A stretch of DNA of 64,000 bases, taken from a virus. Shown in pieces: positions 17,849 to 42,584 of the stretch. The translations under genes and the position numbers were made by a program. The DNA lies in IMG/VR virus record IMGVR_UViG_3300029206_000002, one strand, 5' to 3'. How positions within the stretch are numbered: the stretch's first letter is position 1; each line of letters opens with the position of its first letter. The notes under the pieces are model-generated. The model had not been told where the DNA came from, searched no databases, and worked only from the letters and a program-made list of their open reading frames with translations.

Positions 17849-19710
17849 TGGCAACGAATAGATTTGATAAACCAATAGAAAGTGAGTATATTAGTTAGTA
17901 TACACCAATACCCTTTGAATAGTTATATGCCATAGGTAAAGCAAATAACGAAAGAGTAGATAAAGCTTATTAGGATTTAGGTAATCAGTTTACTAAGTGG
18001 TCAGAGTTTAGATCACCATCAGCTGTAGATACCAAGAGATGGTATGATTTAACAGTTGGAGCTGGACAAGATATAGTAAACAAATTAGCAGCTAATCCAG
18101 ATTTGATTAAAACAGCAGAAGGTAGATCCTTAATACAATCGTTTATTAATACTAGACCTTATAATGAATTAAGCTAGTTACAATAGAGCAAAGAAGGATT
18201 ACTTTAGAGATAGAAAGTAAATCAACAACTTATGCTATCTGGTAAGTATAATCCTATGTGGCACGATATTGACTTTACTAATTATAATACTTTAGATAGT
18301 GGAGTATTTAATGATGTTGCTCCATTAGCTTATAAGTCAGAAGTAGATTTAGTAAAGCCTTATGTTGATAATTTGAAACCTGGATTTATTAGACAAGAAG
18401 GTGCTTATGATTGGAGAGGAGTTTCATCTGAAAGAACAGATCAAGAAATAGCTAACAATATTTCTGCTATATATAACACTCCTGAAGCACAGAAACATAT
18501 ACAAGTATTAATACAGCAAGGATATACTCCAGAACAAGCCAATGCTTTATTTGCTAGTCGTATATATAGAGCTGGTAGAGAATTTGCATATGAAGATAGA
18601 GAACTTAATCCTTTATCTAAGATATACGAAGAAGATAGATTAAAGAGGGCTAGAACAGGACAACAAACTGCTCAAAAACCATTTAGATTGACAGAATCTA
18701 TTGCAGCTACTGGTGGAGATGCATTTAAATTAGGAACTCAAGCTTACATAGCTAATAAATATAGAGATCAGATAAATTCTTTAACCGATCAATATAATAA
18801 AGCTGTCGAATCAAATGATACTCTATCTGCAAATATATTTAAGGAACAATTACGAAAAATATATAATGAATCTAATAGTTACACACCAAATAAACTGTTT
18901 AATGAAATATTTAAAGAATATGCTACAGATGGTAAATTAACTAATATAGATTTATCAAACGCTACTAATGATATTTTGAATAGATTTGCAGCTCCATCTC
19001 CCATAGCTTCTGTAAATGATTTATTACAAACTACCATACCAGGTGTTACATCTGAAACAGTTACTACTCCATTAGGTAAATACAGAGTAATAGCTAATCC
19101 TAGACAATTAGATTTAGCTACAGATGTTATATCTGAAATAGCTGGTTATAAACACGTAGAATCTGGAAAGAATAAGTTTAGAGATGCTCTTAAAAATGGT
19201 AAACTAACGAACGTTATTCTTCAATAGGGAGGTAATATTCTTACTTTACCTGTAAATAAAAATGGACAAGTACAGCCTAATTCTAGTTAGGTAATTACAG
19301 TAGCTATACCCCAAAGTCAATTAGATGCGTTAGGTATAACAGACGCAGATATGGTTATATCTGGAGCTAAAAGAATATACGATCGCTCTGGTAAGGTGTC
19401 TATATCTACAGAAATAAAAGAAGGTGATAAACGTAAACTACCATTTCAAAGATATTTAGAAGAAGGAGAGTATAGCAGTAAATATAACTATAAAGGAAAA
19501 GTATCTTACAATGTTCCTACAGAAGATGTATATTGGTAGATAGAATTACTAAATAAACTTCCAGATCCACAAGATAAATTAAATGCTGAATACTTAGATC
19601 AACAAGCATGGAAGCTATCTATGACAGATGCATTTAGATCTGAATTATATCCAAGTACACAACAGGAAGCTTACGGCATTGGTTATTCTGCCGGAGAAGA
19701 AGAAAAATAA
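17848..19710 (+). CDS. Hypothetical structural protein of 621 codons with about 10 in-frame TAG.
   Basis: ATG 17848 in frame 1. Track ORFs at 18232 and 19351 are in the same frame. It ends at TAA 19708-19710. Confidence 0.6.
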
Positions 19711-19756
19711 AATCGCATAAAAAATGGCTAAGAAAAATAAATTTAATTTGAATTCC

Positions 19757-19784
19757 CCCTCACTAGGACAATAGCTAGTGAGGG
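19757..19784 (+). terminator. Perfect 10-bp stem-loop (ccctcactag / ctagtgaggg) between two late genes.
   Basis: Inverted repeat read from the sequence. No clear U-tract follows. Confidence 0.4.
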
Positions 19785-19789
19785 AAGCT

Positions 19790-22700
19790 ATGACTCCGTA
19801 CAGCGAAGGGTTTGATATATCGCAACTACCATAGTCATATGGAATAAATGAATTTACTACAGAACAAGAAGTGCCAGTAGTAGAAGAAGCTAAAGATAAT
19901 AAAAGATCTTTAGCTGAAGATATTGTATGGAATACTGGAAAACTAATAACTAATGTATTAGATAATGCTAATCCATTATATCAGTATATACAAAAAGAAA
20001 GACTTAGTGTTGGATTGTCTAAATTACAAGACAATTTAATGGAAACAGAATCTAAATGGATACCACAGATATAGGAAGCTCAAAACTATTTAGAAGCTAA
20101 GTCTATTGTAGATAATATCTCTAATAATATACTTACAGATGAATAGAAAATGGCAGTACAAACTGTTAATTAGTTAGAACCTAATATAAAAGAGTATGCT
20201 AAATCTAATCCGTACTTAAGAGATTTATTCTACGATACAGATCCTACGAATGTAAATGGTAGTATAGCTATAAACTTTAAAGCTTTGCTAAATGACTTTA
20301 AAGATAATAATATATTCAACGTAAATCCGCTAGATAATATAGCTACAGCGTTAGAAGATAATGCATTAAACTAGGAAGAACAAGATTTCTTATGGAACAA
20401 TAAATAGCAACAAATGTCTGATAAAGAAAGATTAGACGCTATTTAGAAAGTATTATCTGATGCTAATGATGAATACGAAGATAAAACAGCTAAGATAGTA
20501 AAAAGATAGAATACTTTAAAGAAAGGTAATTGGTTGTACGATCCTACTGCTCTTACTAAAGAATTTGAGTAGAGAGTAAATGAATCTGAGTTATCTATTA
20601 CTGATCCTAAATCTTGGTTTTATAATCTAGGTCATATTGGTAGTTCTTTGTCTGAAATAGAAATGATGTTCTTACAAACAGGAACTTCAATATTGGCTAA
20701 TAAAGCAGCTAGAAGTCTAGCTGTTAGAGGTGCTATAACTGCTGTTCCAGGTGTTGGTCAAGCAGCTACAGCAATTGCTTTAGGAGAAGCAGCTTTTAAT
20801 CTTTGGTTAGCTAAATATTACAGGCAATCTGAAACAGCTAGTGAAGTGTTTGACAACTATCAGCAAAGAGTATTGCAAAGTGCTAACGATAATAAGACAG
20901 ATGTAAATAGAGTATTAGAATCTTGGGAACCTAGATTAGGTGAGTTAGGTTATCCTGTAGATTAGATGGACAAAAATGAAAAACTACAAGCTGGTTTAGC
21001 TCAAGGTCTAACTACAGATCAAAAAGATTTTGAAGAAATCAGAAACGATGCTTTTGATGGCTTACAAATGGTTAGAGATGTGAATGACGCTTTAAGTTAT
21101 TCAGATTATTTACAAAGTATGCCGTTTTCCTATGGAGGTAAAATATTATGGAATTAGGCTAGTAAAGCATTAGCAAAAGCTAGAGGTATAGAAAGACCTT
21201 TAGATGAAATACCAAGTGTAGTAGACCAGATTGGTTTGGGTAAAGCTATTGACAGAGGGGTGGAAAATATTCTGAACAAAGCATCTAGACCTGGACAAAA
21301 TATTACTAGGAAACATTTATTAGAAAACATTGGTAAATTCGCTAAAGCTAATGCTATTAATTTTGTATCTGAACGTAGTGAAGAAGGTGTTCAATCTGTA
21401 GTTGGTAGTAGATATCAAAGAGGAGAATACGACTATTTAAAAGACAAAGGAATAAATCCTATATCTGCTGCATACAACGCTGGTCTTCTTGGGTATGAAG
21501 CCAATCTTGCTTACTTTGGTTTATCAAATGATAATTATCTAAATACAGATGATGAATTAAAGAAGGCGATGGATATTGGTGGATTCATAGGTTTAGTAAT
21601 GCCATTTGCTGGTAATGCAGTACAATTGAAAAATGCAGTAAGACAGTATGCTTCAGATAAAGAAGTACAAAAACTTATTGCTAAAGGATATAGTAATGCT
21701 GAACAGGATAACAAAATGGATGTCTTCCTCGATGCTTTACAAGCTGGTAAAGATATTAATTATGTTACAGATTATTTAGAGTCTGCTAAAAAATTGAAAC
21801 AGCCTGGAGTAACAGATGAAATGATAGATGAAGACAAAAATCTAGCTACTAATCTGTGGGCTGAATATCGTAATAAATCTATTGATGAAAATTTAAAAGA
21901 TTTAGGTATTAAGAGAGGCAGCTCTGAGCATAGAAAAATAGTTAAGAACTATCTACATATTAAAGATAGATTGAATGAGGCAGAGCAATCAACTAACGAT
22001 GTAGCCAAAGAGTTAGAAAAGATAATAGAGCAAGGTAAAACTAATAAAGATGATGTGTTCCTACAAAAAGCTAGAGAATCTTATGATGCATTTGTTGAAA
22101 GTAAAAGATAGTCTGATGAAGATTATCAATACAAAATGAACGCTACTCCAGAATATGCAGACGAAATAGAACAAGATTTTTTATCTACTTTACCTACTTT
22201 TGATGAATATTCAAATGCTGTATATGATATTACTTATCTAAAATTATAGAATCAAGCTATAACAGATTTGTATAAAGCTCTTACTAATAGAACTAAAACT
22301 TTACAACAGTTATCAGAGGATACTGGTTTAGATGTAGATCTCAGAAATATAAATAATATGAGAAACTACATTAAAAGAGAAAAAGAAAGAATAGAAAGAA
22401 ACGTTCGACAAATAGTAAGTACATACGGTATACAAAATTTAGATTAGGCTCAAGATCCAGTAAATGCTGAATAGATAAAGAATTATGTAACAGCGTTTGT
22501 AATGAATAAAGCTGTAAGAGATAGATTGAGAGATCAAGCCACAGCTTATATTACTGGTAAACTTAAAGCAGAATCATATTAGGATATCAAAGGATATTTG
22601 TTCAAAGATTTATCTGAAGAGCAATAGGATAATATTATACAAGAATATACAGATAAAGCACTAAGAGAAGGTAAACCTCAACCTAGTAGAAAATCTATTA

Positions 22701-25700
22701 TATCTAAGTATAATCAACAAGCTCAGATGAAGTATAATGATTTACTAGAATTAGCTGATCAGGAACGTGCGTCTAGAATTGTAGCCAATTCGTTATTTGC
22801 TGAACATCTAAGTAAATCAGTTAGATAGGAAAAAGTTGCTAGAAAAGAAAAAGAGGAAGCTGGAGAAGTATTACCACAAGAAGAAATAATAGAAAATCCA
22901 GCAGCTGCTACTGAAGACACTACTAAAAAACAACAAGAAAAAACAGAGGTTAAACCAGAAACTCCAATACAAGAAGGAATACAACAATAGCCTGTAGTAC
23001 AAGAAACTAAAACAGAAACAGTAGAACCTGTAGTACCTGAATCCATGTCTACAGATGTAGATGATATTCTTAGAGAAGAAGAACAAGCTTTACTAAATCA
23101 AAAGGGCAGGCAGTTAGAAATAGAACCTAGTAGCGAAGATGTTCTAGTAGAAAGAGTTATAGAAGAATAGATACAATAGCCTGAAAGAGAAGTACAGGAT
23201 ATTATAGCCAGAGAAGAAAAAGTTGATGTAACTGTAGACGATGTTAGTCACGTAGAAGATAGCACACCTTCTCCACAAGAGCTAGAATAGGAAGATATAC
23301 GTAACAGAACTTTATAGAATCCTGATGAAGTATCTGGTGTTAGTGAACAAACATCTGAAGAAGTACCAGAAATTGCTGTAGCTACAGATGCTCAAGAAGC
23401 AAATGAAGAACAGAACACTAATACAAAAGATAAAAGTAATCCAGTACCACCAACTCCAACTCAAGTAGAAGACAGCAAGCCTGCTCAGGATGCTCCTACT
23501 ATAACTATAGTTGATGGAGGTATATATGTAAATGATGGAACTACTTTTATATCTGATGAAGTATTGGCAGCAGAAGCTAAAATGCTAGAAGATACTTCTA
23601 CTGAAGTATATGGAGAAACTGGCTACGCTAATATGAAACCTGAAACTGTTACTAATAACTCTGATGCATTGAGTAATAGAAAGGTATAGAAAGTAAAACA
23701 TGTTTCTAACACGTTTTTCTTCCAACCAGATGCTGCATCTCCAATGAATATTACTGTGAATGGTAAACCTATTACTTTTACTAATAGTAAAGGAGAAGTA
23801 ATACCTGTATTACCAGGAAAAGAATTATCTAAAAGACTTTTAAAGAACGGTTGGATAAATTCTGTAAATGCTTATTATATAGTAACTAACCATAGATACG
23901 GAGACACTTCTCCATATATGCAAGCTATTCACTTAGTATTAGAAGATACTGATGGAGTAATGATAGCTTCTCTAAGAACTCCAGATTATGTAGATAAAGA
24001 AATAGCATCTGGTAATTATAATTCTGAACAAGTTCAGTAGTTACAAAAGTAGAAAGAAAAGTTAATAGAAATTAGGCAACAGATAGTAAATGCTTACCTT
24101 GGTAGTAATAAAACTATACCTACTACTATTATAAAGTCTGTTAAACCAGCTAAATTAAGAATAAGTAATGGAGAATTTAATAACCAAAAATCTCCAGAAG
24201 GAGCTCCTGTAAGACGTAAACTTACAGAAGTTAATGACTTTGGATTAGAACAAAATAACGTAAGAAAGTTAGATCAACAAGTAAAGGAATTGCAAATTGG
24301 TTATGGTACTGGTTCTGTAGAAGACTTTGTTACTGAACCTTTTGTTATTCGCAAATTAGGGTCTAATGACGAATTAGCGAGTAATGGTGTTGGTAGATCT
24401 GGAGCATTATATATATTCCCAAAAGCAGAACAAACACCTAATGGTTCTATAGCTCCTATTCAATTATCTATACATAAATTAGATTATGATATTTATGGAG
24501 ATGAAGTTGAATTGGGAAAAGACGGTAAAGTAAATTCTTTAGCTGAATTAGCATATAAGTTGTTAATCGGTAAAATAAAACTTGGTGGTGCTGAGCAAGA
24601 TGTACTTAATATAATTGTTAATAATGGACCAAAGACTTTAATAAGTGAAGAAATAGGACAAAAATATCCATTCTTAATGGATAAAATGCTCTATTACTAG
24701 TCTGAAGAAGGTAACACACATGTACAATTTGCTGTAAGAAATTCTAATGGTAAACACATAAAAGTAGAATTTGATCCTAGTAGAGCTTCAGAATCTCAAC
24801 ATAAATTAGCTATAAGAAAAATAGCTAAAGATCTGCATTGGAATACCGATAAGTATGCTTTATTAGAACCTATATCAGATAGTATTATTCGACTAGCTAC
24901 TTCTTACTTTAAACAGTATCCAAACGCTAAACAATTTAAGATAGCAGGTTTAGAGCAATTAGCTTTTACTAGAGAAGACTTAGGAATAGGTACTGATAAA
25001 GGACCAGTGTCTTTACTTACTTGGTTAATTAACACTGGTAAAATTGAAACAGATTTAGGTGATACTATATATAGAGCTCCTTTCATATATACAGATGGAG
25101 TAGCTATACCACAAGTTACTGAAACAGAATTAGCTAGTGCAAGCAAACAATAGCCAGTATAGAAATCAGCATAGAGAAAGGTAGAAGAAACTAACAATAA
25201 ACAAGTAAAATTAGATAATAAACCTATTTCTACTACAGGTATAGAATATGTTTCTACTAATGAGAATTGGTCTGAAGAATAGATTAAAGATTGGATGAAA
25301 ACCAATTCTCCTCAATACAAATATAAAACTGGTAAATGGCAAATAATTCGTAGAAATGGTAAATTGCAAGCTGCTCAGAGATTAGCGAAAAGAGGGTTAA
25401 CTTCACAAGTAAAAGGTGAAGGTAAATTAAATGTAGATGAAGCTAGACAATGGCTACAAGATAAACTAGGCATTGACAAATCAGATGTTGTAACTTCAGA
25501 AGCAGTATTTAGAATGGCTAATGCTCCACAAGTATACGGTGCTTTAAAAGTATGTATGGATAGACTTAGTGGTGATACAGCAGCTAGAATATTCTTATCA
25601 GAACAATCTGGGCAAGGAGTAGAATTCCACGAAGGTTTCCATTATGTAAGTTAGTTATTAATAAACGATAAGCTTAGAGAACAAGTATATCAAGATTATG

Positions 25701-28700
25701 TAAAACAATATCCATATTTAAAAGATGCTTCTAAACAAGAAGTAGAAGAAGCTCTTGCTGAAGAATTCAGACAATATATGCTAAATGAAACCAAACCATC
25801 TATAGCATATAGAATTAAGAAATTATTTAATGCAATACTTAAAGTATTAGGTATTACTAGGAATGGAGATTTAGTAAGAACTTTATTTAATAAAATACGC
25901 AAAGGAGAATTTTCAAAATATAAACCATCTAAGTCCACATTAGAAGATTTTGAAAAAAGATTTGGCGGTACATTGTACTATTACGTTCCAGGAGTAGAGG
26001 ATAAAGAATTAAAGAAAATGGCTTCTATAGCAGATGCTACTACTTTCTATGCAGTAGTAGACTCTTTAAATGCTACAGTAATGGATACATTTAATATTAG
26101 TAGTATAGAAGATTTACAGAGCTTACCTAAAAAGATTAATGATATATTCGATGATATTCTAACTACCAACTTAGAATTAGGAATGTATGATGAATCCCAA
26201 GAACAACTTATCAAAGATGTAATCAACAACAAAGAAGTATTCAAGAAGCAAATAGACGATTACTTAAGAAACTTTAGTATTATTAAAAAGAATACTGAAG
26301 AATCAGAAGAACAAGAAAGAGAAGAAAGAGAACTTGGAGATAATCCTGATAATACTTGGGATAAAGAAAGTTATACAATAAGTAAAAAAGCTAATGTGGC
26401 TTTCAAAGCAAAACTATTCTTTTATTCTATACCTAAAACTAAATATGAATTTGATCCAGAAACAGGTAATAAATACTTAGTAGAAGAGGAGGATGACTTG
26501 TTGATGACTACTAGATCTGAAGATTTTAACGTTGTGTGGAATAAGATATTAGAGAATCTGTGGAATGTTGAAAGTTATTTAGACCTAGTAGATAAGTGCT
26601 ATAATCTTGGTAAGGTAGATCCGTTCTTTATGACTGTATATAATAAGTTAACTTCAAAAGATGATCCTATTGATGAAGTCACTTAGACTCAAATATTAAA
26701 TACAGTTAAAAGTGCAAAAAATAGTTTAACTGCTATAATTGTAGAAAGAAAGTAGATACCTTTTACGTAGAGAGGATCTGATGAACAAATAGAATATGCT
26801 ACACAAGAATATTCTAATAAATTAAAATGGAGAATTCAGAATTCTGATGTATATAGAAAGATAAGTAGATTACCAAAGAAATGGTCGCAATAGTTCTTCT
26901 TGTCAGATTTAATTGATGTTAATGAAGATGGTACTAGAACTATAAATCAAGATAAGTTTCATTCTGCTGTGTGGAAACATAAAATATTAATAGATAATGT
27001 ATTAAAAAAGAAAGATAAAACTTTGGATGATTATATTAAAGTTAGATCTAATTTTATAGATATGTGTAATAATCTATCTATTAATATGGATGATTTAGCA
27101 TTAGACTATTTACTTACTAATGGAACAGGTTAGCCTAACATGCAATCATTTGAGAATTTCTGGAGATCTACAAATGCTAGTACTTCTTTAACTAAAAGTA
27201 TATTAAATAATATTAATATTGCTGCAATCAGAGGTACAAGTAGTATAAAATCTAGAAGTGGAGAAACTGCTAGAACATTTGATAGAATATTTACTAGTAG
27301 AAAACCAGATGCTTAGATAAATCTAATGGCTATAGCTTGGGGTAGAACACACCCATCTCCAGAAGAATTTAGTGTAACTGGAGCGGATGGTAATCTAGTA
27401 TATCCTATTACAGAGAATAATTATATGTCAGACCAAATAAGATGGTTGAAATATAATTTAAATGGTAAGAGAGAATTATTAGGTAAAAATCCTTACTCTG
27501 CAAATTCTTTGTTGTTACAGTCTATAAATAGTAATGCTGATTTAATTAAATTAAATACTTATCTAAACTTAGAAGAGAATCTGCAAAACACTAATCGTGA
27601 TTACTTTGGTATATCTCCTATAGAGGATTACTTATCTAAAATGACATTTGGATTTAATAATCACTTATTTTGTCCTACTATGTCTGATAAAAAGACATGG
27701 CACACTATAAGTGGTATTCAAATGGTCAAGGATTTCTTACCATCTACAGCTATCACTGATTACGAATACAATGAAAACGGAGATATAACTAGAGTTATAT
27801 TTTAGGATCAAAAGAGAAGATTCTCAGATAGAACTTTAAATATATTCAAAGGATATTTAAGAGATGAATATAATGCTATATAGAAGTATTTTGCTACTAA
27901 ACAAAGTGTTATAGATAATCCCAATCTATCTGTTGGTAATTACTATGGTAGTAAAAAAGGTAAATACGCTGATGGTAATGGTGGAAGATTTAGATATTTT
28001 AATAAGATAACCATTAATGGTGATACTTATAATTTAAATGAAATTCTAGCTAAAGCAGAATATTCTAATGACTCACAATCTATACAAGATATTCTTAATG
28101 TAATCAAATAGGCATTAGATAACGATACTGTAATTAAGGAAGCTATCAATGATTTATTAGTAGGTTATGTAAATAATGAAATATCAAAAGCTGTAGAGTT
28201 AGGTGTAATAGGTGAAGACTTAAGTAATAAGTATATACCTATAAACTTTGTAGAAGAATTTGAAAAAATAAGTTCTAAAACTGATAGTAGAGATAAAGGA
28301 ACAGATGTGATATACTCTATCATAGCTTCACATGCCATCAACAGTGCGATTTCTACTATAGAAATAGAGAAATGTTTTACTGGAGATCCAGCATTATATA
28401 AATGGCAAAAAGAACTTATGGTATATAAGCCCAATGATGATTCATTTGTGCCTGTTATATCAGATGAAAGAACATTAGAAGCTTGGATAGATAAACATGA
28501 CCCAGATGGAGATAAATCAAGTTATTCTGCTTATTATATGATAACTGGTAGAGATGTAGATAAAATTAAACGTCTATCTTCAGTATTGTCTACTGGAACA
28601 AACTTGAGAACTAAATGGGGAGATACTAAGGATTAGGAAGATAGAAGTGATTCTAAATTCCAAGTATTATAGTTATCAGATAATGAAATAGGATCTACAG

Positions 28701-31700
28701 TATATGATACATTATATAGTATGTTTAGAAAATCCTTAATAAAGGATATGTTCCAAAAAGAGTTTGGTGTTACTGATTAGCAAGCATTAAATGCCGTTAA
28801 GGACGATCATGCTATAGAAAGTACATTAGGTAGATTACGTAAAAAGAATCCAGATGCTATTAAGTTTATTGAACAACAAGCTAAAAATAGCGCTAAACCA
28901 TATGCTGACGGAGAAATTAATCAAGCAGATGCTGCTGTTTACATCAGACCAGAGTTCTATAAGAGATTGATGAAGTCTTTAGGAGAATGGAGTCCTGAAA
29001 TCGAAGAAGCTTATAATATTATGGAGTCTGATGATAGCTGGTTGAGTGATACTGAGAAGTATCAAAAAGCAATTAAAGCTATCACACAACCTCTTAAAAT
29101 GGTTTACTTTGGTGATCACTTTGATTAGACTCTTGGTATGAATGTAAACACATTTGATAAAATGGCTTTATTCCCACTATTTAAGACTTTTGCTAAAGCT
29201 GATAATAAATATTTATACGATCGTATGAATGATGCTAGTAAAGGTTATATAGACATGGTAGCGTTTGAATCAGCTATTAAAGTTGGTGGTAGAAAGAAGT
29301 TATCATTCTATAAAGATGGTAAAGTAAACTTATCTGAATTAACATCTAATAGTGATATAGACGGCATTTCTGGTAAAGGATTGGCAACATATACTTAGGA
29401 TTTAACTCAAATCAGATTACAGTTAAATACTGATCCACACGAACACCTTGAAAGATCATTTGGTACACAAGCTATTAAAATTGGTTTTGCTAATGTAGTA
29501 GATACTCGTACTTATGGAGAAAATAAAGGATTAGCTGTAAAAGGTTCTGAAATTAAGAAGAACATTATGGATGCTATTAACTCACTATCCAGAATAGGTT
29601 AGAATAAAATAAGAAAAGAGTTCTTTACTAACGGCAAAGTAGATAATCGCAAAATAGTAAATTATCTTTAGAGATAGGCTACAAATTCAGGTATGTCTGC
29701 TGAAATAATTGCCAATTTAACAGTTGATGAAAATGGAAATATTATAGTACCAATTGAAGCTCAAAGTATTAGAGATTGGATTCAAACTAAGATAACTTCT
29801 TTTGTCAATAAAGCAGTAGTAGATGTAAATACTCCCGGTGGTTCTGCTATTCAGATGTCTTCATTTGCATATGAAGCTGTTGGTAGAAGTGTAAAAACTG
29901 ATGCAGAATTAGGTTCAGCTTTTAATCAAGGAAAGAAATTAAAATTCTTAGCTAAAGAAGGTCATATGCAAGTTATACTTAGTGAAAACTTCTTTAGAGA
30001 TATATTACCAGAAGAACTTAAAAGTGCAAGTTTTTATAGTAAACGCAAATGGTTAATTGATAATGGTATAATAGGTAGTAGAATGGTAGACGGTGTAGAA
30101 GTAGAATCTAAACCTTATGGTATAGGATATCGTATTCCTACACAGGGTTTGTCTTCCATGTTCTCATTCCAAGTAGCTGATATTATGCCAACTACTATTG
30201 GTGATACAATCATAGTTCCGGAAGAATTTACAGCTATGACTGGTTCTGACTTCGACGTTGATAAACTTTATCTAGCTACATATACATATAAAGATGGTAA
30301 AAGAGTAAGTTCTGACGAAAAATCGGAACAAGGTTACGTTAATAAGTTGCTAGATAATTACTCATTAGTACTGACTGACTTTACCAATATTGCTGAAACT
30401 AGAGCTTCTATTGATACATTAACAAAGATTCTTCAAAAGCAGATTCTTCCAATAGTTCAGCCAAAAAATACTGTAGAAGTAAATCCTATGTATGAATTAG
30501 CTCCTTCTTTCTAGCTTTCTAGAAAGACAGAGTATACTGGTGGTAAAGCTGGTATTGCTCCATTTGCACTTAACTCTACTAATCATGCGTTAACTCAATT
30601 TACTCACCTATGTATCAATTATTCTAATGCTAATAGATATAACTTAGGTCAGTTAGATTAGGTATATGGAGAAGATGATCAACGTATTATGGACTGGTTG
30701 TCAGCATTGATCAATGCTCACGTGGACGTTGCCAAAGACCCATATATTATGGCTTTGAACGTAAACTCTATTACTTATAATATGACCTCTTTGCTTATCA
30801 GAGGTGGTAAAGGTGAGAATACTTTCTACTTCTTAGCACAACCTGCATTGCGTAGGTTTACTAAAGAAATGTTAGAAAGTAAAGGTATAATAGGTGCAGA
30901 AAAAGGAATAACTGAAAGAGATAAACTTAAATCTATAGCTAAAGAATATATGACTTCTTTGAGAGAAGCGATTGTATCATTAGATGATAGTGATTCTAAT
31001 AAAGCAAAGTATGCACAGTATTATAATAGTTTAGCTAGTGAATATTCACTTCCATCTATAGAAGGATATGATGCTGTTGAGGTCAATTATAATGATGTGT
31101 TTGATAAGAAAGTAGCATCTGAAGCGTTAAAAAAACCAAAAGAAGTCAATGGATTATATCAACAAGTCATATCTATTAGAGCTTATCAAGATTTGTCTTC
31201 AGATACAGAAGTTTTATCAAATTTAGTTCAATTATCATAGATTGATACTAAGAAATTTGGTAATACCTTACCGTTACAGTTAAATTTCAAACGTAGATTA
31301 AATAGATATATAGATAATTATCAAAGTAGGTTCTATATAAATGGAGCTGATAACATAGAAAAACCTATAAACTATTACTTATCTTCTACATTCCTTAAGT
31401 AGAAACTAGATGCTGGTATAAATACTCCTAGAATATTATTAAGCGGTCAAATTATAGAAGCTACAAAAGGATATAAGACAATATTTAATGCTGCATGTGA
31501 CTTCTTTTTAGGTAATTCTTCAGATAAAAATACTGTAGCTGAATTATCAAAAATATTAACTACTTCACTAAGAACTAAAGCTGTAGTAAATGCAGTTGAG
31601 GACTTTAATATTAGTGATAAGAAGTTCCTTAATATGTTAAGAGGACCTAAAAGTATGGCTAAAAGGTTAACTTAGATTAAAAATGATTTAAGAAAACGTA

Positions 31701-33049
31701 ATGATTTACCAGCAATTGCGTTCAATGGTCATATTAAGAATGAGTTACTTAACTATCTACAAGAATATGCATCTGATGGTACTAACTAGAAATATGATAG
31801 AATAGTAACAGCAGATAACGCTTTAACTAATACTGCTACTTATGAAAACAGATTATTGTCAGCATATCAAGATCTACTAGACTGTGAAGATGAAGGTATA
31901 AGAAAGTTTGCTAATAGATTGGGTGTATATGCTTACTTAACTAGTTTCGATAATAGAAGTACTGATTCATTCTTCGATGTAATAACTACTGCTTGGAAGA
32001 AACAAAAAGGTTATTCAGATGCAATTAAAGCTGCTATAGAAATACTTAATAATGATAAATTAGTAGGTATGGATTATTTTGGTTTTAATTCTGAAAACAT
32101 GCAGAATAATAACTTTACAGAGTTATTTACAGAAATAGCTAGAAATGCTTATAGAAATGATAAAATAGTTAAACCATATCAGTTAAGTAATTATGATAAT
32201 AAGTATGGTACTCTAGTTCAAATAAAACCCGAATCTAAGCCAATACCAGCAGTATTTAGTAGTTGGAGAGCTAATCAACCGTTTATTAAGATTCAACTTA
32301 ATCCTAATGACATCAATAGTTATATATTGTATCAGAAAGTAGCAACAGTATATCAAACTGATGAAAATGGTGATCCAGTAAAAAATACAAAACAATCTGT
32401 ATATAAAATTATACCAGCTTTAGGTACTAAAGATGATAGAAAAGTTTACTATGAATATCAAAAACAATCTGGGGAACAATCTGCATTTGAAGAAAATGCT
32501 TTACCTAAAGAAGCTATTTGGAACAATGGACAAATAGAACAATTAGTCTAGAAATTTTTTGAACCTATGACAAATAAAAATCATACCACTTTAGTGTATG
32601 AATCTTCAGATGCTATAGTAATTAATACTGTAGAAAAACAAGAAATAGTTAGCTTTGAAGAGCCAGAAGTTACAACAGTAGGTTCAGATTTAGAAGCATC
32701 TAATGAAATACATAATACAGAAGATACTTAGTCTTCTACTATTTATGGAGAAGTAGACGAACAAATTTCTACAATAACGGTAGGACAAGATGATTCTGTT
32801 ACGTTATCAGATATGCAAGTAGATATGGAAGATGGAACTTAGACTATAATAAGTGACGATGTATTGAATTTTACAGAAATAACTGATGATGTGTTTGGAG
32901 AAAGTCCGTACTTTGATTCTATATTAAATGCTGGTATTACTCAGTATGAATAGGTACAAGATATAATTACAGATATGAATACTGGGACTGATACTGTTCA
33001 AGATATGAAATTTAATGATGAAGCTTATAAAAACTGTAAAGGTAAATAA
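19790..33049 (+). CDS. Giant ORF of 4,420 codons with more than 70 in-frame TAG and no TAA or TGA. It is a candidate multi-domain ejected cargo protein containing a virion RNA-polymerase-like DxDxD motif (DFDVD at 30247-30261) and an HExxH motif (HEGFH at 25627-25641).
   Basis: All 15 track ORFs from 19871 to 31856 are in frame 2. An eye translation across the whole span found only TAG interruptions. It has an acidic disordered linker around 22.8-23.5 kb. The RNAP assignment is an inference from the motif and from how crAss-like phages are organised. Confidence 0.65.
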
Positions 33050-33051: not shown

Positions 33052-36000
33052 ATGATTATATGTCCAAATTTTAGTGATAAGAATGTCCTAAAAGAATTTA
33101 ATGAATTAAAAGAATTGGTAGGCGAAATTGGCGCCTACCATATCTGGAACGAAAACAATGGTAATCCTATTGATTAGACAAAAGATGGTAAGCCATCTAA
33201 GCTATTTTCAGACTTACTGTAGTATTATAATGGAGACAGAGCTGCTGCTATAAAAGGAAGAGCTAAAACCTTTACAGAAACGTTTAGTACGTGGTTTGAA
33301 GGATCTACCGCTATAGATGAAAACGGTGAACCTATTATTACAGAATTTGATGGAGATAGAGTGTTTGTTTCTGATCCAGAATATGATTCTACTAAAGAAT
33401 TAACAGAGTTAGATACATCTAAAATTAAATCTGTTGATAATACTGGTTCTTTTTCCGCTTCTGACAGTAGAATAAAAGGATCAGAGCTAGATGAATCATT
33501 GTAGTATTACTTAACTAATAGTCTAGATGAAAGGTATCAACAAGATGTACAAGAATATATAGAAGCATATAGATAGTATTTTGATAAATATGATTATGCT
33601 ACTAAAGAAAATCTTGAGAAAGAATTGGAAAAAGTAATACAGAAAATACACGATGGTCTTAAAGCTAGATTATATACTCTGAATAAAAAAGATACTAATG
33701 TTACAGATGAATTTAAAGCAGCTTTAACATTACAAATATCTGAATTAGAAAATAGAACAGTAGATAGGATTTAGAACATAACTAACTTTATATATAGTAC
33801 TAAATATGATATACTATCTACTATAAGACAAATCAGAGATGTAGTAAATGGAGTGTAGGATAAAATGACACTAAAGTAGTTGTTAGATCTAAAACAAGAT
33901 TTCTTTAATTTCTATTGTCCAATGTTAGATGAATGTGTTAATACTTTATCTGCTACAGAGGAATATAAATATATAGTTGGAGAAAATCTATATAGAAATT
34001 TATTAAAGGAAGCAAAAAGAATGCAGACTATTCTAAATGTAGGAGCTAACAATGTTAATAACATGATTACTAAGTAGTCTGCTGAAGAAATTAGAAGAAT
34101 TGGTATATCTGTTAATAGTCCAACTATAGAAAATTATATATAGGAACATCAAGAAACAGTAGGTAAAGATATATTAGCTATTACCGCTTGGGTAGGAGCT
34201 GGAGATAAAATTAATGACGAAGCTATTAGAGCTTTATTTCATATAACTCAAAATGCAGAATTTGAAGTTAATAGAGCTACTTACGAAAAGTATAATAAAC
34301 TAACAGAACTGTTAAAAAAAGCTGGTACTTTTAATCAAAAAAAATTAGTAGAGCTTGATGAAAATGGTTTACCTACTGGATATCTAGTCAGAAAAAGAAA
34401 CTATGGTAGATTTAATAATGACTATAAACAATTCTTAAAGTAGCTCAGAAGTGATTTAGGCATGTTAGATGTAGATGATTTACGTTCTGTAAATCCCACT
34501 ATACGTACAGAGTATAATAAAAGAAAAAACAAATGGTTATCAGAACATTGTGAAAGAAAATATACTCCTGAATACTATGAACTATTTAACAATCTATCGC
34601 CTTTAGCCGCTGATGCTAGAGAATTAGTACAAATCAAAATACACAAACTACTAGATACTGTAAAAGACGCTAATGGATTCTATGACACAAGTAAGTTATC
34701 AGAAGAAAATCAAAGTAAACTAAAGGATTTATATTTAGAAAAAAAATAGTTAGCTAGTATATATGGTATAGATGGAAAATTAAAACAAGGTGAAGAATAT
34801 GAAATAGCTGTAGAACTAGCTGCATTAAATGATAAGTTGTCTAAAGGTATGGTTTTAAAATCAAATAAAGCATTATTTGATAAAATCAAGGCTGAAAAAA
34901 AAGCAAATTTATCTGAAGCTCAGTATCAAAGATGGTTATAGTATAATTCTAGAGATGAATATACTCAAGAATTCTATGATGATCTTGCTAAAGTAGAAAG
35001 ATCTGAAATAAACAATGAATCAGATAAAAAGCTATATGAATAGTTGCAAGAAAGAAAAAGAGCTATACTTAAACAATTTAGAGATGATAAGACACATGAA
35101 ATTGAAAAGTTAATACCAGGAGTTGCTCAAGCTGAATTAGATAAAATAGATGTAGATTTATATAGGATAAGAAAAAGAAACGGTAAAAAGAAAACTACTG
35201 GATTAAAATTTAACGATATAGCTAAAGTGATACCGTCTAAGCTGTTCTATAAACTTAGAGCTGATGCCATTGCTAATGGAACTTTAGCAGAATTTGAAAT
35301 GACACATTGTAATAGAGATAGTCAAGGTAATATATATCCTAAATCTTATCTTACAACAGTTGTTCCAGTGAAAGAAAAATATATACTTAAAGAACAGCCA
35401 TCTATTTACTTTTCAGAGGTAGATTAGAATTCTCCATTTGTTAATAAGAACTACAAACCAGAAGTTGAAGACTAGGGAGAATACTATTTGCCTAAATTAG
35501 AACTATACGATAATTCAGAAGCATTTAATAAAGTATCTTCAAATGAAGATTTACATGAATTATACAAAGAATGTGTGAATACTCTTAAAGAATCAAATAG
35601 CAAACTTACTAATCTTACTAATTTAAGTTCATATAGATTGCCACAAATATCAGGTTCTATGTGGAGATATGTTAGAGCTAGAGGTTTTGAAGGTTTTAAA
35701 GAATATTGGAAAGATAAAGTATCTACTAGAAATGATGATACTGGTTTAAATGATGAAGTAGTAGATACTGGTACAGATAAATTATATTTTGTTCCACAGA
35801 ATTATGTTAAAAGTCTGGATGATCCTTCTACTATTACAGCTAATACTGTTGGCTCTATAGTAGAGTATTTTAAAATGGCTGAAAACTTTAGAATAAAAAG
35901 TGAACTCAAACCTAAAACAGAAGCTATCCTACAATTTATAGGTAATCGAGACGTCAAAAGTAAGTACAGAGGAAGGAGTAAAAAAGGGCAGGAATCTAAT

Positions 36001-37458
36001 ATATATAAGTTTGCTAAAAGTTTCGTAGAGATGAATATATATGACATTAAGACTAAATCTGCTATATGGGATATCAAAGAAAGAGATTATTCTATACTAG
36101 GATTTAAAGGTCATATAAAACCTAGAAAAGTTAATTTTACTAAATTAATGCTAGGTTTAAAAGCATTAGGAACTACTGTAAATCTAGGTTTAAACATTAT
36201 ATGTGCTACTACGGGTTTTTTTACAGCAGTCTATAATGATATAATTAATTCGCTTTCTGGTAGATATTATAGTTTTAGTGATAGTCTTAATGGTGCTAAA
36301 GCATTAATTGTAGACTTATTTAAAAACAATTTTAGTTTACTTAGTGATTATCATAATAGTACATAGATGAAGCTAATGGAATATTTTCAAGTAGGTGCTG
36401 AAATAAAAACAGATAGACTTAATCTATCTACTTTTCAAAAACAAATAGCTAGAAACTGGGCTTTTGGAGTATACTCTTTAAGTGATTATGTCGTAAAGGG
36501 TCATATACTAAATTCTGTTATGTACAACTATAGATACGTAAATGGAGAGTTTCTTAATAGCGAAGAATTTAAACGTAAATATAGTAACGACGAAGTAATG
36601 TTAAATCAATGGAATACATTTAGATCCTCTAGAGATTTAGTAGAGTATAAAAATGGAAATATCGTAACCAAAGACCCTGCTTATCAAAAAGCCTGGGATG
36701 CTAAAAAAGAAACCATTGGTAACACTGCTAGAAATTTAGCTCAATCTGCTGATGGTTAGCTTACTCCACTATAGAAAACTATGTTAAGTAGTAATATTAT
36801 AGGAAGTTTAGTAATGATGCATAGACAGTTTATGCCTATTATACTTCAAGAAAGATGGGTATAGAATAGACAATGGGATTATAGTTCTCAAAGATATAAA
36901 GAGGCTTTGTTTAGAGTTCCTTTTAGTATTATTTCTGCAATAAGAAGAGATACTAGGAATATTAGTTTATGGTAGAAGTATATGTAGAATTCTACATACG
37001 ATTAGCGTAGAGTAATAAGACAATTATCTTTAGAACTAATAGGTGTACATATATTGCATTTCTTCTTAATGCCAATAGCAAAGGCTTGGGCAGATGATGA
37101 TAAAGATAATATATTAAAACAATTATTAGCTTTTGCTTTAGTAAGAACAGATTTTGAAACTATGATGTCTTCTACCCCTTGGGCAATCCAAGACGCTATC
37201 TCAACTATCAAAACTCCATTCCCTATTTATAGTTATTATGATAACTTTTCTGGATTAATTTCTACTGTACCAGCATGGGTACATAATCTGATTAATAATG
37301 AAGATAAAAAAATAGATAGAGGCGCTTATAAAGGTTTTTCTCCTACTTTTAAATTTGGAATGAAAATAACTCCGTTTAAAAATATATGGGAATTATAGGA
37401 TATACCTTCTAAAAGAAGATATTACGAAACTCAAATTGCAAATAGAGATTCTGATTAA
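33052..37458 (+). CDS. Giant virion protein of 1,469 codons with about 25 in-frame TAG.
   Basis: ATG 33052. Track ORFs at 33880, 34462, 35044, 35488, 36367 and 37054 are all in frame 1. It ends at TAA 37456-37458. Confidence 0.65.
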
Positions 37459-37463
37459 TGTAA

Positions 37464-37496
37464 AAGGCTGGATTATTTCCAGCCTTTTATTTTTAA
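37464..37496. terminator. Bidirectional rho-independent terminator at the convergence of the late and early modules.
   Basis: Perfect 9-bp stem aaggctgga/tccagcctt with loop ttatt, flanked by A/T runs on both sides. It lies between the + gene ending at 37458 and the minus gene ending at 37493. Confidence 0.8.
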
Positions 37497-37930
37497 CAAG
37501 TACAAGTATAATCAGAGCAAAAGTCATTTGACTTAAGCAAATCATCAAATTGATCTAAGTAGTCTTTCCAAATAACAACTAAATCTTTTACATCTAAATA
37601 ACTATCAGTAAATCTACCTTTTTTACAGAATTCTAATTCTTGTATTTTATCTTTACTAACTTTAAATGAAAAGACAATATAAGATTGTTTATTTATAGTA
37701 TAAGGAAACCAGTTATAATATGTTTTATTACAACTGATTTCCTCTATTTTTTTAGATAGTTCATAATGACTACTAAACTTATAAACTAAATATAATTTTC
37801 CTTCAGAATTGTCTCCTTTTAAATTTGTATACATATTTACAAATGCTGGACAATCAAAGTAAGATATCTTCGCTTCTATAAAATCACTTAAAAATATTAA
37901 GCATTTATTATAGTTTTTCAACACCATCAC
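37493..37930 (-). CDS. Hypothetical protein of 145 aa.
   Basis: Intact ORF. Confidence 0.5.
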   Translation of the reverse strand: MMVLKNYNKCLIFLSDFIEAKISYFDCPAFVNMYTNLKGDNSEGKLYLVYKFSSHYELSKKIEEISCNKTYYNWFPYTINKQSYIVFSFKVSKDKIQELEFCKKGRFTDSYLDVKDLVVIWKDYLDQFDDLLKSNDFCSDYTCTC

Positions 37931-42530: not shown

Positions 42531-42584
42531 CCTTAAATTGATAGTGCCATATAGGATTGTAACAGATCCTCCTAGTAGTTGAAA

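What the first reader, a model, noticed from the sequence alone, without database searches (positions are those of the whole stretch)
19790..33049. A single 13.26-kb ORF of 4,420 codons with a DFDVD motif and an HEGFH motif. It is a candidate giant ejected cargo protein fused to a virion RNA polymerase.
Fifteen same-frame ORF fragments with no TAA or TGA over 13 kb cannot arise by chance in AT-rich DNA. The DxDxD motif at 30247-30261 resembles the catalytic Asp triad of two-barrel RNA polymerases, including the crAss-like virion RNAP. The HExxH at 25627-25641 suggests an embedded zincin-like domain. If this is one polypeptide, it is among the largest phage proteins known.
Basis: partly seen in the sequence, partly recalled or inferred. 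Interest (0 to 1): 0.8.

Follow-up and report, generated by a model that had tools for sequence, protein, structure and literature searches.

The report
Giant crAss-like phage virion RNA polymerase
This is the already known giant protein of a human-gut crAss-like phage (a 97% match to RefSeq phage cr6_1): a virion-carried RNA polymerase fused to an upstream cargo region with a protease-like motif. It reads as one gene only because the phage decodes the TAG stop codon as glutamine in its late genes.

Summary
Window 19790-33049 (+) is one frame of 4,419 codons with 59 in-frame TAG and no TAA or TGA (chance about 1e-120). TAG reads as Gln. It swaps with CAG/CAA in a 97%-identical strain. It is confined to the late (+) gene block. 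The near-identical genome cr6_1 carries a tRNA with anticodon CTA.

The C-terminal part (aa ~2118-3880) is collinear with the solved crAss-like virion RNA polymerase phi14:2 gp66 (PDB 6VR4, E=2e-34). DFDVD aligns with the catalytic DFDID.

HEGFH (aa 1947) lies in a conserved module that also ends crAss001 cargo protein gp47. Its model has zincin-like topology, but fold matches to known zincins are weak.

The giant is therefore a gp47-like plus gp50/gp66-like fusion, followed by a gp49/gp65-like ORF.

It is not new. RefSeq annotates it as one CDS (misnamed "nuclear pore complex protein-like"). The fusion occurs in all three Suoliviridae subfamilies checked (4,328-4,946 aa). Relatives of 6,320-6,581 aa exist. 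The RNAP, the fused polyprotein and the TAG-to-Gln late-gene recoding are all published. The first ~1,800 residues remain without a function.

The parts
19790..33049 (+). Giant ORF: 4,419 codons plus TAA, with 59 in-frame TAG read as Gln. A gp47-like cargo region fused to a gp66/gp50-like virion RNA polymerase.
   Evidence: It is 97% identical to the single annotated CDS KNV52_gp36 of RefSeq NC_055894.1.
19724..19789 (+). Possible N-terminal extension of 22 codons (including 1 TAG), starting at an upstream in-frame ATG. This is the start RefSeq uses in cr6_1.
   Evidence: The ATG lies 13 nt after the stop of the preceding ORF (19708-19710). N-termini are not conserved between subfamilies, so the start is unresolved.
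19757..19784 (+). Perfect 10-bp stem hairpin CCCTCACTAG-GACAATAG-CTAGTGAGGG between the two candidate start codons. No T-run follows it.
   Evidence: RNAfold gives dG -19.1 kcal/mol. It is unique in the window, with 0 expected by chance, and identical in cr6_1. Function unknown.
19790..22849 (+). N-terminal region (aa 1-1020). Predicted helical, with two weakly hydrophobic Gly/Ala-rich segments (aa 314-332 and 593-611). Conserved only within Suoliviridae. Function unknown.
   Evidence: tblastn hits only 17 records, all under the same giant CDS. No Pfam, PHROG or PDB match. Hydropathy. AlphaFold of aa 457-773 failed at pLDDT 39. Synonymous excess 0.67.
22850..23524 (+). Acidic, P/Q/T/S-rich low-complexity linker (aa 1021-1245). 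It contains a strain-variable 117-nt (39-aa) stretch at 23152-23269 that is absent from cr6_1.
   Evidence: Composition; indel.
23525..25189 (+). Middle conserved region (aa 1246-1800). Function unknown.
   Evidence: Conserved across Suoliviridae giants, with 31 invariant columns in 4 subfamily representatives and tblastn matches. No PDB profile hit and no Pfam hit.
25190..25969 (+). HExxH (zincin-like) module, aa 1801-2060. Homologous to the C-terminal module of crAss001 gp47.
25628..25642 (+). HEGFH motif (aa 1947-1951), the putative zinc-binding and catalytic helix.
   Evidence: Invariant in the Suoliviridae giants and gp47 and >=90% conserved in 50 homologues.
25745..25768 (+). EEALAEEF (aa 1986-1993), the candidate third-ligand Glu helix, 36-40 residues after the second His.
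   Evidence: E1987, A1990, E1991 and F1993 are invariant in A1 and >=90% conserved in A2. They lie on a helix with pLDDT about 90 in the model.
25970..26359 (+). Fusion junction (aa ~2061-2190) between the gp47-like part and the RNAP part. It includes an acidic stretch at aa 2166-2192 and is the candidate processing region.
   Evidence: In unfused relatives the protein ends right after the module. gp66 homology begins by aa 2118. Synonymous fraction 0.92. Cleavage itself is only inferred.
26141..31429 (+). Virion RNA polymerase region (aa 2118-3880), collinear with phi14:2 gp66 residues 140-1809. That span includes gp66's cleft-blocking region, DPBB1, Connector, DPBB2, bridge helix and trigger loop.
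   Evidence: gp66 landmarks come from bioRxiv 10.1101/2020.03.07.982082. crAss001 gp50 residues 730-1958 map to giant ~2650-3850.
30248..30262 (+). DFDVD catalytic motif (aa 3487-3491).
   Evidence: Aligned to gp66 1361-DFDID-1365 and gp50 DFDVD-1483. TGSDFD[VI]DKLY is invariant in the Suoliviridae giants.
31430..33046 (+). C-terminal region (aa 3881-4290) plus an acidic tail (aa 4291-4419). Less conserved.
   Evidence: Identity profile. Synonymous fractions 0.85 and 0.57. No detectable match to gp66 beyond residue 1809.
33052..37458 (+). Downstream 1,468-codon ORF with 23 in-frame TAG, starting 3 nt after the giant's stop. Homologue of crAss001 gp49 and phi14:2 gp65 (RNAP-associated virion proteins). 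It is the last gene before the strand switch.
   Evidence: BLASTP gives gp49 E=2.7e-10 and gp65 E=7.6e-11. Start codon. Synteny.

Best explanation
The window comes from a strain of the human-gut crAss-like phage Afonbuvirus faecalis (Crassvirales, Suoliviridae; 97% identical to RefSeq cr6_1). The ORF is its late-expressed giant virion protein.

Shown here:
- It is one continuous, selected reading frame.
- TAG is decoded as Gln.
- Residues ~2118-3880 are homologous to the two-barrel virion RNA polymerase phi14:2 gp66 / crAss001 gp50, including the catalytic DFD[IV]D.
- Residues ~1801-2060 are homologous to the HExxH module that ends crAss001 gp47.
- The gene sits at the end of the late block, followed by a gp49/gp65 homologue.

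Inferred from experiments on homologues: late in infection a phage tRNA-Gln(CUA) lets ribosomes read through the 59 TAGs. The protein is packed inside the capsid as cargo and ejected through the tail ahead of, or along with, the DNA. Its polymerase part then transcribes the early genes, which in this genome lie on the opposite strand and use the standard code.

More speculative: the HExxH module, which sits about 170 residues upstream of the segment matching gp66's auto-inhibitory cleft-blocking domain, cuts the polyprotein or frees the polymerase.
For: - ORF statistics and selection.
- TAG = Gln. Of the 25 codon positions where one strain has TAG and cr6_1 differs, 21 are CAG/CAA. The 99%-identical variant P0001 has Gln where the window has TAG at aa 1955. 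Gln/TAG make up 15.5% of residues opposite window TAGs in distant relatives, against a 4.4% background. The late ORFs carry 13 TAG per 1,000 codons, while the early ORFs have 0 in 5,296 codons and never use TAG inside a gene. cr6_1 carries a tRNA with anticodon CTA, annotated tRNA-Gln. cr118_1 encodes a collinear 4,946-aa homologue with no TAG at all.
- RNAP homology. gp66 biochemistry and structure.
- gp47 module homology.
- Virion mass spectrometry of gp47/gp49/gp50: PMC10172136.
- Synteny with phi14:2 g067-g066-g065 and with the Suoliviridae relatives.
- Published descriptions of the fused polyprotein and of late-gene TAG-to-Gln recoding in the delta group.
Against: - No experiment exists for this phage or for any Suoliviridae member. 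Packaging, ejection, polymerase activity and any cleavage are extrapolated from phi14:2 and crAss001, which are only 23-31% identical in the alignable blocks.
- The suppressor tRNA is not in the window itself.
- The two DPBB folds were not modelled here.
- The first ~1,800 residues have no detectable homologue outside Suoliviridae and no assigned role.
Confidence: 0.88

Rival explanations
1. The frame is translated as one chain but does not persist as one protein. The HExxH module, or another protease, cuts it near aa ~2060-2190 into a gp47-like cargo protein and a free RNAP, reproducing the separate proteins of crAss001 and phi14:2. This refines the main explanation and does not exclude it.
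For: - Unfused relatives end exactly after the module: most of the top 150 hits have it at their extreme C-terminus.
- The junction contains an acidic low-complexity stretch.
- The literature proposes cleavage of the fused polyprotein and possible proteolytic activation of gp66.
- MPTase domains of polyvalent proteins are proposed autoprocessors (PMC5512222).
Against: - No cleavage site can be recognised.
- The junction is under strong purifying selection, like a folded region (synonymous fraction 0.92).
- The analogous N4 virion RNAP carries an MPTase domain yet is packaged unprocessed (PMC5512222).
- Protease activity is unproven.
Confidence: 0.35
2. The HExxH module is not a working peptidase. 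It could be a structural or packaging module that kept a zincin-like scaffold, or an effector or cell-wall hydrolase acting on host targets and not on the polyprotein.
For: - No Pfam, PDB-sequence or Foldseek match to any curated peptidase family.
- In N4 the region containing the MPTase is needed for encapsidation.
- In some homologues the module sits next to an ART-PolyVal effector domain.
Against: - H, E, H and the downstream EExxAExF are >=90% conserved over 50 diverse homologues, and the module family has 3,867 relatives. This argues for a retained metal site.
- The model's order of secondary-structure elements matches the published MPTase core definition.
Confidence: 0.3
3. TAG is a genuine stop here. 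The region would then be a string of short genes or a decayed pseudogene, with at most occasional readthrough.
For: - Under the standard code the frame breaks into 60 pieces.
- No suppressor tRNA lies in the window.
- In the early block, TAG does end some ORFs.
Against: - TAA and TGA are completely absent over 13 kb, with P about 1e-120.
- Homology and purifying selection run straight across the TAGs.
- TAG exchanges with CAG/CAA.
- A standard-code relative encodes the same collinear protein without any TAG.
- The sister genome carries a tRNA(CUA).
- The recoding is published for this phage group.
Confidence: 0.02
4. The giant ORF is an assembly chimera or artefact that joins separate genes.
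For: None found. This was considered only because crAss001 and phi14:2 encode the parts as separate genes, on opposite strands in crAss001.
Against: - Three independent records share the same continuous 13-kb ORF at 97% identity.
- The same fusion is annotated in three Suoliviridae subfamilies.
- Full-length 6.3-6.6-kaa fusions exist in other datasets.
Confidence: 0.01

Closest known systems
KNV52_gp36 (YP_010112711.1) of CrAssphage cr6_1, NC_055894.1 (Afonbuvirus faecalis, Suoliviridae), and the equivalent giants of cr125_1, cr118_1 and cr113_1
   Same: It is the same gene, 97% identical in nucleotides over all 13.26 kb and annotated as one CDS of 13,203 nt. The Suoliviridae homologues of 4,328-4,946 aa have the same order of regions, the same invariant HExxH...EExxAExF and TGSDFD[VI]DKLY motifs, and the same downstream ORF and strand switch.
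   Different: - The window's copy has a 39-aa longer acidic linker, and its first ATG choice differs.
- RefSeq product names are misleading: 'nuclear pore complex protein-like', 'exonuclease V', 'DprA-like', 'DNA helicase'.
- cr118_1 uses the standard code (0 TAG).
[quoted passage not shown] 2021)
   Same: - Collinear sequence homology over gp66 residues 140-1809.
- The catalytic DFD[IV]D has Val/Ile at the fourth position, as in all crAss-like RNAPs.
- Same position at the end of the late block, followed by a gp65-like gene.
   Different: - gp66 is a stand-alone 2,180-aa protein. Here about 2,100 extra residues are fused to its N-terminus.
- Identity is only ~26-31% in the alignable blocks.
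- In phi14:2 an HExxH motif (HEIMH) lies in gp65, downstream of the RNAP. It is not detected by the profile of this module.
crAss001 gp47, gp50 and gp49 (RNAP-associated capsid cargo proteins; Bayfield et al. 2023, PMC10172136)
   Same: - The C-terminal HExxH module of gp47 is homologous to giant aa ~1801-2055.
- gp50 (DFDVD at 1483) matches giant ~2650-3850.
- gp49 matches the downstream ORF.
- All three were detected in virions by mass spectrometry.
   Different: - In crAss001 they are three separate genes, and gp50/gp49 lie on the opposite strand from gp47. Here gp47-like and gp50-like are one frame.
- No homology was detected between the giant's first ~1,800 residues and the corresponding part of gp47.
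- crAss001 uses the standard code in these genes (no stop codons in the translations).
Zincin-like MPTase domains of 'polyvalent proteins' (Iyer et al. 2017, PMC5512222; archetype ArdC, PDB 6SNA), including the MPTase fused to the N4 virion RNAP
   Same: - Same order of elements: N-terminal helix, three-stranded sheet, HExxH helix, Glu helix.
- Same setting inside a very large virion-delivered multidomain protein next to a virion RNAP.
- Some homologues also carry ART-PolyVal.
   Different: - No Pfam hit to MPTase-PolyVal or to any other peptidase family.
- Fold similarity is weak.
- The N4 RNAP is a T7-like single-subunit enzyme unrelated to the two-barrel RNAP here. No N4 vRNAP chain appears in the PDB searches, so the shared architecture would be convergent.
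Neurospora QDE-1 and cellular multisubunit RNAPs (two double-psi beta-barrel polymerases)
   Same: They share the DxDxD metal-binding motif in the second barrel. gp66, the giant's homologue, superimposes on QDE-1 over 479 residues according to the structure paper.
   Different: No sequence-level match to QDE-1 or to cellular RNAP chains was found here (one search returned only 6VR4). The relationship is known only through the gp66 structure and was not tested directly on this protein.

Membership tests
crAss-like virion RNA polymerase (phi14:2 gp66 / crAss001 gp50 family) | Significant, collinear sequence homology to gp66 across DPBB1, Connector, DPBB2, bridge helix and trigger loop | tested here: met
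   phmmer against the PDB finds only 6VR4, at E=2.4e-34. BLASTP E=5.6e-27. Profile windows map giant 2118-3880 to gp66 140-1809 in order. Landmarks.
crAss-like virion RNA polymerase (phi14:2 gp66 / crAss001 gp50 family) | Catalytic DFDxD motif with Ile or Val at the fourth position | tested here: met
   DFDVD at aa 3487-3491 aligns with gp66 DFDID 1361-1365 and gp50 DFDVD 1483. It is invariant in the Suoliviridae giants. The paper states that I/V at this position is universal in crAss-like RNAPs.
crAss-like virion RNA polymerase (phi14:2 gp66 / crAss001 gp50 family) | Genomic position at the end of the late/structural block, next to a gp65/gp49-like gene, in a Crassvirales genome | tested here: met
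   Gene order. The downstream ORF matches gp49 and gp65. Crassvirales taxonomy of the 97% match. Replication module on the other strand.
crAss-like virion RNA polymerase (phi14:2 gp66 / crAss001 gp50 family) | Two double-psi beta-barrel folds in one chain | not tested
The folds are inferred from the alignment to 6VR4 only.
crAss-like virion RNA polymerase (phi14:2 gp66 / crAss001 gp50 family) | Packaged in virions, ejected into the host, transcribes early genes; Mg-dependent RNA synthesis | not testable with these tools
   Shown for gp66 and, for virion presence, for gp47/49/50. Nothing exists for this phage.
Zincin (gluzincin-type) metallopeptidase / MPTase of polyvalent proteins | HExxH on a helix plus a conserved Glu on a following helix | tested here: met
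   HEGFH at 1947-1951 and EEALAEEF at 1986-1993. H, E, H, E, A, E and F are invariant in A1 and >=90% conserved in 50 sequences. Both lie on helices with pLDDT about 90 in the model of homologue P0008.
Zincin (gluzincin-type) metallopeptidase / MPTase of polyvalent proteins | Core of a three-stranded sheet flanked by an N-terminal helix and the two C-terminal helices | tested here: met
   Model elements are H50-61, E68-71, E86-92, E97-105, H112-125 (HExxH), an inserted H128-141, and H150-169 (Glu helix). This matches the definition in PMC5512222. The model is of a 48%-identical stand-in, not of the window protein itself.
Zincin (gluzincin-type) metallopeptidase / MPTase of polyvalent proteins | Significant sequence or structure similarity to a characterised zincin family | tested here: inconclusive
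Zincin (gluzincin-type) metallopeptidase / MPTase of polyvalent proteins | Zinc binding and peptidase activity | not testable with these tools
   No experiment exists for any member of this module family, as far as the papers read here show.
Late-gene TAG-to-Gln recoding of crAss-like phages (delta group / Suoliviridae) | In-frame TAG confined to the late gene block; TAA/TGA used as the stops there | tested here: met
   The six large late ORFs hold 131 TAG in 9,910 codons, and all end in TAA. The 18 early ORFs hold 0 TAG in 5,296 codons.
Late-gene TAG-to-Gln recoding of crAss-like phages (delta group / Suoliviridae) | TAG corresponds to glutamine | tested here: met
   21 of 25 TAG differences against cr6_1 are CAG/CAA. 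P0001 has Gln at the TAG of aa 1955. Gln is enriched opposite TAG in distant relatives. This agrees with PMC7886860.
Late-gene TAG-to-Gln recoding of crAss-like phages (delta group / Suoliviridae) | Phage-encoded amber suppressor tRNA | tested here: inconclusive
   None is in the window, which holds only tRNA-Ile(GAT). The 97%-identical genome cr6_1 has a tRNA with anticodon CTA at 25904-25977, annotated tRNA-Gln, in a part of the genome that the window does not cover.
N4-like virion RNA polymerase (T7-like single-subunit RNAP) | Sequence homology to the N4 vRNAP / T7-like polymerase domain | tested here: not met
   PDB sequence searches with both halves of the giant return no N4 or T7-like RNAP chain at E<=1. 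No Pfam RNA_pol hit. The resemblance is in lifestyle and architecture only.

The most novel reading that the evidence does not exclude
The fusion may be a self-activating polymerase zymogen. In Suoliviridae the HExxH module is wired directly, about 170 residues upstream, to the segment homologous to gp66's auto-inhibitory cleft-blocking domain. After ejection it would cut in cis at the junction (aa ~2060-2190). That cut would release the polymerase from a ~2,000-residue N-terminal ejection or anchoring region and unblock its active site. The same module sits at the C-terminal end of a separate protein in crAss001-like phages and next to ART effector domains in others, so it would be a mobile 'release switch' for virion-delivered proteins, convergent with the MPTase-RNAP fusion of N4-like phages.
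Probability: 0.25. Interest if true: 0.55.

Novelty: already known. Interest (0 to 1): 0.2.

Why it matters
This is confirmation, not discovery. It shows that a reader working from raw sequence alone can recognise stop-codon recoding and a crAss-like virion RNA polymerase.

Practical value:
- RefSeq names for this protein family are wrong ('nuclear pore complex protein-like', 'exonuclease V', 'DprA-like', 'DNA helicase') and could be corrected to 'virion RNA polymerase polyprotein'.
- The analysis gives a residue-level domain map of a Suoliviridae giant, places the conserved HExxH module immediately upstream of the polymerase's inhibitory N-terminus, and brackets the fusion junction. This makes the published but untested 'proteolytic activation' idea directly testable.
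- About 1,800 N-terminal residues of one of the most abundant protein families in the human gut virome still have no assignable fold or function.

Tried and rejected
- PHROGs and Pfam scans of the whole giant gave no hits.
- A PDB sequence search with the N-terminal half gave only a chance hit at E 0.47. PDB profile searches with family alignments of aa 200-760 and 1290-1840 found nothing.
- The word-indexed protein database returned mostly TAG-truncated fragments: 7 hits for the module alone and 2 hits for aa 457-773.
A 48%-identical homologue was modelled instead.
- AlphaFold of N-terminal aa 457-773 with 3 sequences gave pLDDT 39 and was not used for fold search.
- Foldseek against the PDB was not significant. 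AFDB50 was unavailable. BFVD returned only crAss giants.
- The module profile does not detect phi14:2 gp65's HEIMH region, nor does BLASTP. The literature's 'gp65 zincin' could therefore not be shown to be the same module.
- No homology was detected between the giant's N-terminus and phi14:2 gp67 or the N-terminal ~2,000 residues of gp47.
- Transmembrane helices are not supported. The two hydrophobic segments reach a Kyte-Doolittle mean of only 1.26-1.36.
- The start codon (19724 or 19790) could not be settled by conservation.
- Intein or intron interruption was rejected. There are no endonuclease or intein Pfam domains, and the protein is collinear with the standard-code cr118_1 homologue.

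Full report
**1. Observation.**

Window 19790-33049 (+) is 13,260 nt. Read in frame it gives 4,419 sense codons and a terminal TAA, with 59 in-frame TAG and no TAA or TGA. With the window's base composition (31% G+C), the chance of 4,419 codons without TAA or TGA is about 1e-120. The two other frames of the same stretch contain 225 and 575 such codons.

Both motifs exist: DFDVD at aa 3487-3491 (nt 30248-30262) and HEGFH at aa 1947-1951 (nt 25628-25642). The TAGs cut the frame into 60 pieces, 14 of them >=100 aa, not fifteen.

An upstream in-frame ATG at 19724, 13 nt after the preceding gene's stop, is an alternative start and would give 4,441 aa.

**2. Genome context and code.**

When TAG is treated as sense, the + strand from 386 to 37458 becomes a tight row of large ORFs that all end in TAA or TGA. 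The - strand from 37.5 to 64 kb is a row of standard-code ORFs. The six large late ORFs hold 131 TAG in 9,910 codons. Eighteen early ORFs hold none in 5,296 codons. The early block encodes a DnaG-type primase, a DnaB helicase, a PD-(D/E)XK nuclease, an AAA ATPase and a DNA polymerase.

The whole ORF is 97% identical to two phage records. One is RefSeq NC_055894.1, CrAssphage cr6_1 (Crassvirales; Suoliviridae; Bearivirinae; Afonbuvirus faecalis). There it is already one annotated CDS of 13,203 nt, named 'nuclear pore complex protein-like protein'.

**3. TAG is glutamine.**

- Among codons aligned between the window and cr6_1 in the late ORFs, 141 TAG are shared. Window TAGs that differ in cr6_1 are CAG seven times and CAT once. 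cr6_1 TAGs that differ in the window are CAG nine times, CAA five times and other codons three times. That is 21 of 25 exchanges with Gln codons.
- A 99%-identical database variant (P0001) reads HEGFHYVSQLL where the window has TAG at aa 1955.
- In an alignment with three distant Suoliviridae giants, Gln or TAG make up 15.5% of the residues opposite window TAGs, against a background of 4.4%.
- The window has only tRNA-Ile(GAT). cr6_1 encodes a tRNA with anticodon CTA, annotated tRNA-Gln, next to its terminase gene, in a part of the genome the window does not reach.
- The cr118_1 homologue (4,946 aa) has no TAG at all and is collinear with the window protein. The giant ORF is therefore not an artefact of assuming a code.
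- All of this matches the published description of TAG-to-Gln reassignment restricted to late genes in the delta group of crAss-like phages (PMC7886860).

**4. The frame is a selected coding sequence throughout.**

Differences from cr6_1 are 53-92% synonymous in each of eight regions, against about 20% expected at random. The highest values are in the junction (0.92) and the polymerase (0.89).

**5. The polymerase.**

- A phmmer search of aa 2250-4419 against every PDB sequence returns a single protein, phi14:2 gp66 (6VR4, 'DNA-dependent RNA polymerase'), at E=2.4e-34. TGSDFDVDKLY aligns with TGSDFDIDKMY.
- BLASTP gives E=5.6e-27 to gp66 and 3.6e-15 to crAss001 gp50, whose motif is also DFDVD.
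- Profile HMMs built from four Suoliviridae giants in sliding windows map giant 2118-3880 onto gp66 140-1809, in order and without rearrangement.
- According to the structure paper, that span contains the cleft-blocking domain (196-233), the Connector between the two double-psi beta-barrels (1095-1238), DFDID (1361-1365), the bridge helix (1529-1559) and the trigger loop (1598-1636). The same paper shows that each Asp is essential, that gp66 is in the virion and transcribes early genes, and that Ile or Val at the fourth motif position is universal in crAss-like RNAPs (bioRxiv 10.1101/2020.03.07.982082).
- The polymerase core finds 120 phage records by tblastn, all crAss-like.
- I could not model the barrels directly.

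**6. The HExxH module.**

- The stretch around HEGFH is the most widely conserved part of the upstream half. It reaches crAss001 'putative RNA-polymerase subunit' gp47, where HEAFH lies at residue 2157 of 2,341.
- HExxH and a downstream EExxAExF are invariant in six diverse sequences and >=90% conserved in 50.
- A profile of 52 homologues matches giant 1801-~2055 (E=3e-62) and gp47 (E=3e-105).
- That profile finds 3,867 proteins among 1.84 billion representatives. Most are 1,800-3,700 aa with the module at the extreme C-terminus.
- Two hits of 6,320 and 6,581 aa have the module internally and also carry the polymerase block GGFDFDIDKLY. These are larger fusions than this one.
- Four homologues carry an ART-PolyVal ADP-ribosyltransferase domain beside the module.
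- An AlphaFold model of a 48%-identical homologue has a core pLDDT of 85-95. Its element order is N-terminal helix, three strands, HExxH helix, an inserted helix, then the Glu helix. That is the core defined for zincin-like MPTases of polyvalent proteins (PMC5512222).
- Foldseek against the PDB is negative. BFVD returns only crAss giants. Pfam and PDB profile searches are negative.
- I therefore call the zincin assignment well supported by motif and topology but not proven by fold similarity.
- The literature places a zincin-like domain in phi14:2 gp65. That protein has HEIMH at residue 245, but neither BLASTP nor the module profile links it to this module.

**7. Architecture and relatives.**

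- In phi14:2 the order is g067, g066 (RNAP), g065, then the strand switch.
- In crAss001, gp47 is on one strand and gp50-gp49 on the other.
- Here the order is [gp47-like + RNAP] in one frame, then a 1,468-codon gp49/gp65 homologue starting 3 nt after the giant's stop, then the strand switch.
- The same fusion is annotated in cr125_1 (4,502 aa), cr118_1 (4,946 aa) and cr113_1 (4,328 aa), representing three Suoliviridae subfamilies.
- The structure paper already states that in some phages these virion proteins are fused into a huge polyprotein that is probably cleaved.
- crAss001 gp47, gp49 and gp50 are capsid cargo by mass spectrometry (PMC10172136).

Domain map of the giant:

| Residues | Region |
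|---|---|
| 1-1020 | Suoliviridae-specific helical region |
| 1021-1245 | Acidic low-complexity linker, with a 39-aa strain-specific indel |
| 1246-1800 | Conserved region of unknown function |
| 1801-2060 | HExxH module |
| 2061-2190 | Junction |
| 2118-3880 | Polymerase |
| 3881-4290 | Less conserved C-terminal region |
| 4291-4419 | Acidic tail |

**8. Mechanism.**

Shown here: one selected frame, TAG=Gln, homology to a proven virion RNAP and to a proven virion cargo protein, and conserved catalytic and metal-binding motifs.

Inferred from homologues: late synthesis that depends on the suppressor tRNA, packaging in the capsid, ejection, and transcription of the standard-code early genes.

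Speculative: the HExxH module cleaves at the junction or frees the polymerase's blocked cleft. [quoted passage not shown]

**9. Verdict.**

The zincin part is only partly supported, and the 'largest known' claim is overstated. The feature is already known at every level (gene, family, recoding, fusion), so interest is low. What remains open is the role of the first ~1,800 residues and whether the module processes the protein.

Noticed in passing
window 19757-19784 (+): A perfect 10-bp stem hairpin (CCCTCACTAG / CTAGTGAGGG, 8-nt loop, dG -19.1 kcal/mol) lies between the two candidate start codons of the giant gene. It contains three TAG triplets and has no T-run after it. It is unique in the window and identical in cr6_1. 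It might control translation start or mRNA stability.
   Followed up: partly
window 23152-23269 (+), inside the giant's acidic linker: A 117-nt (39-aa) in-frame stretch is present here but absent from the 97%-identical cr6_1. The low-complexity linker varies in length between strains.
   Followed up: partly
window 6383-8507 (+): A 2.1-kb segment is absent from cr6_1 and richer in G+C (0.37 against about 0.31). It holds a 311-aa ORF (6587-7522) with no TAG, inside the TAG-rich late block. The ORF matches only PHROG 16490 (unknown function, E=1.5e-41) and has no Pfam hit. It may be a strain-specific insertion or a mobile gene.
   Followed up: partly
window ~4468-4542, ~11764-11776 and ~40493-40503, compared with L001 (cr6_1) 1995-3136, 7351-8064 and 36907-37981: The window's strain lacks three mobile-element genes that cr6_1 carries: a group II intron reverse transcriptase, a GIY-YIG homing endonuclease and an intron-encoded endonuclease. 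Conversely, window 42462-44804, with an AAA ATPase ORF, has no counterpart in cr6_1 at megablast level.
   Followed up: partly
window 42585-43394 (-) and 50812-51549 (-): Two early-block ORFs end in TAG, while TAG is a sense codon 131 times in the late block of the same genome. The codon's meaning appears to switch with the infection stage, as described for recoded phages.
   Followed up: no
window 61762-61836 (-): tRNA-Ile (anticodon GAT) is the only tRNA in the window. The amber suppressor tRNA(CTA) of the sister genome cr6_1 lies outside the region covered.
   Followed up: yes
RefSeq records NC_055894.1, NC_055900.1, NC_055872.1, NC_055896.1 (loci L001, L005, L006/L008, L007/L009): The giant RNAP polyproteins of Suoliviridae are annotated with unrelated names: 'nuclear pore complex protein-like protein', 'exonuclease V', 'DprA-like DNA recombination-mediator protein' and 'DNA helicase'. 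None mentions the RNA polymerase.
   Followed up: yes
database proteins P0031, P0035, P0037, P0052 (homologues of the HExxH module): In these relatives the module is adjacent to a Pfam ART-PolyVal (PF18760) ADP-ribosyltransferase domain (E down to 3e-21). Some crAss-like cargo proteins therefore carry a toxin-like effector that this phage's giant lacks.
   Followed up: partly
window 5260-5949 (+): This 230-codon ORF has 11 in-frame TAG, the densest in the window. It partly overlaps the TAG-free holin-like ORF at 4791-5336. It was not examined further.
   Followed up: no
window 53705-56214 and 59880-61183: These stretches of the early block have no ORF of 150 aa or more under any of the three codes tried. 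They probably hold small early genes or regulatory regions, and were not examined.
   Followed up: no
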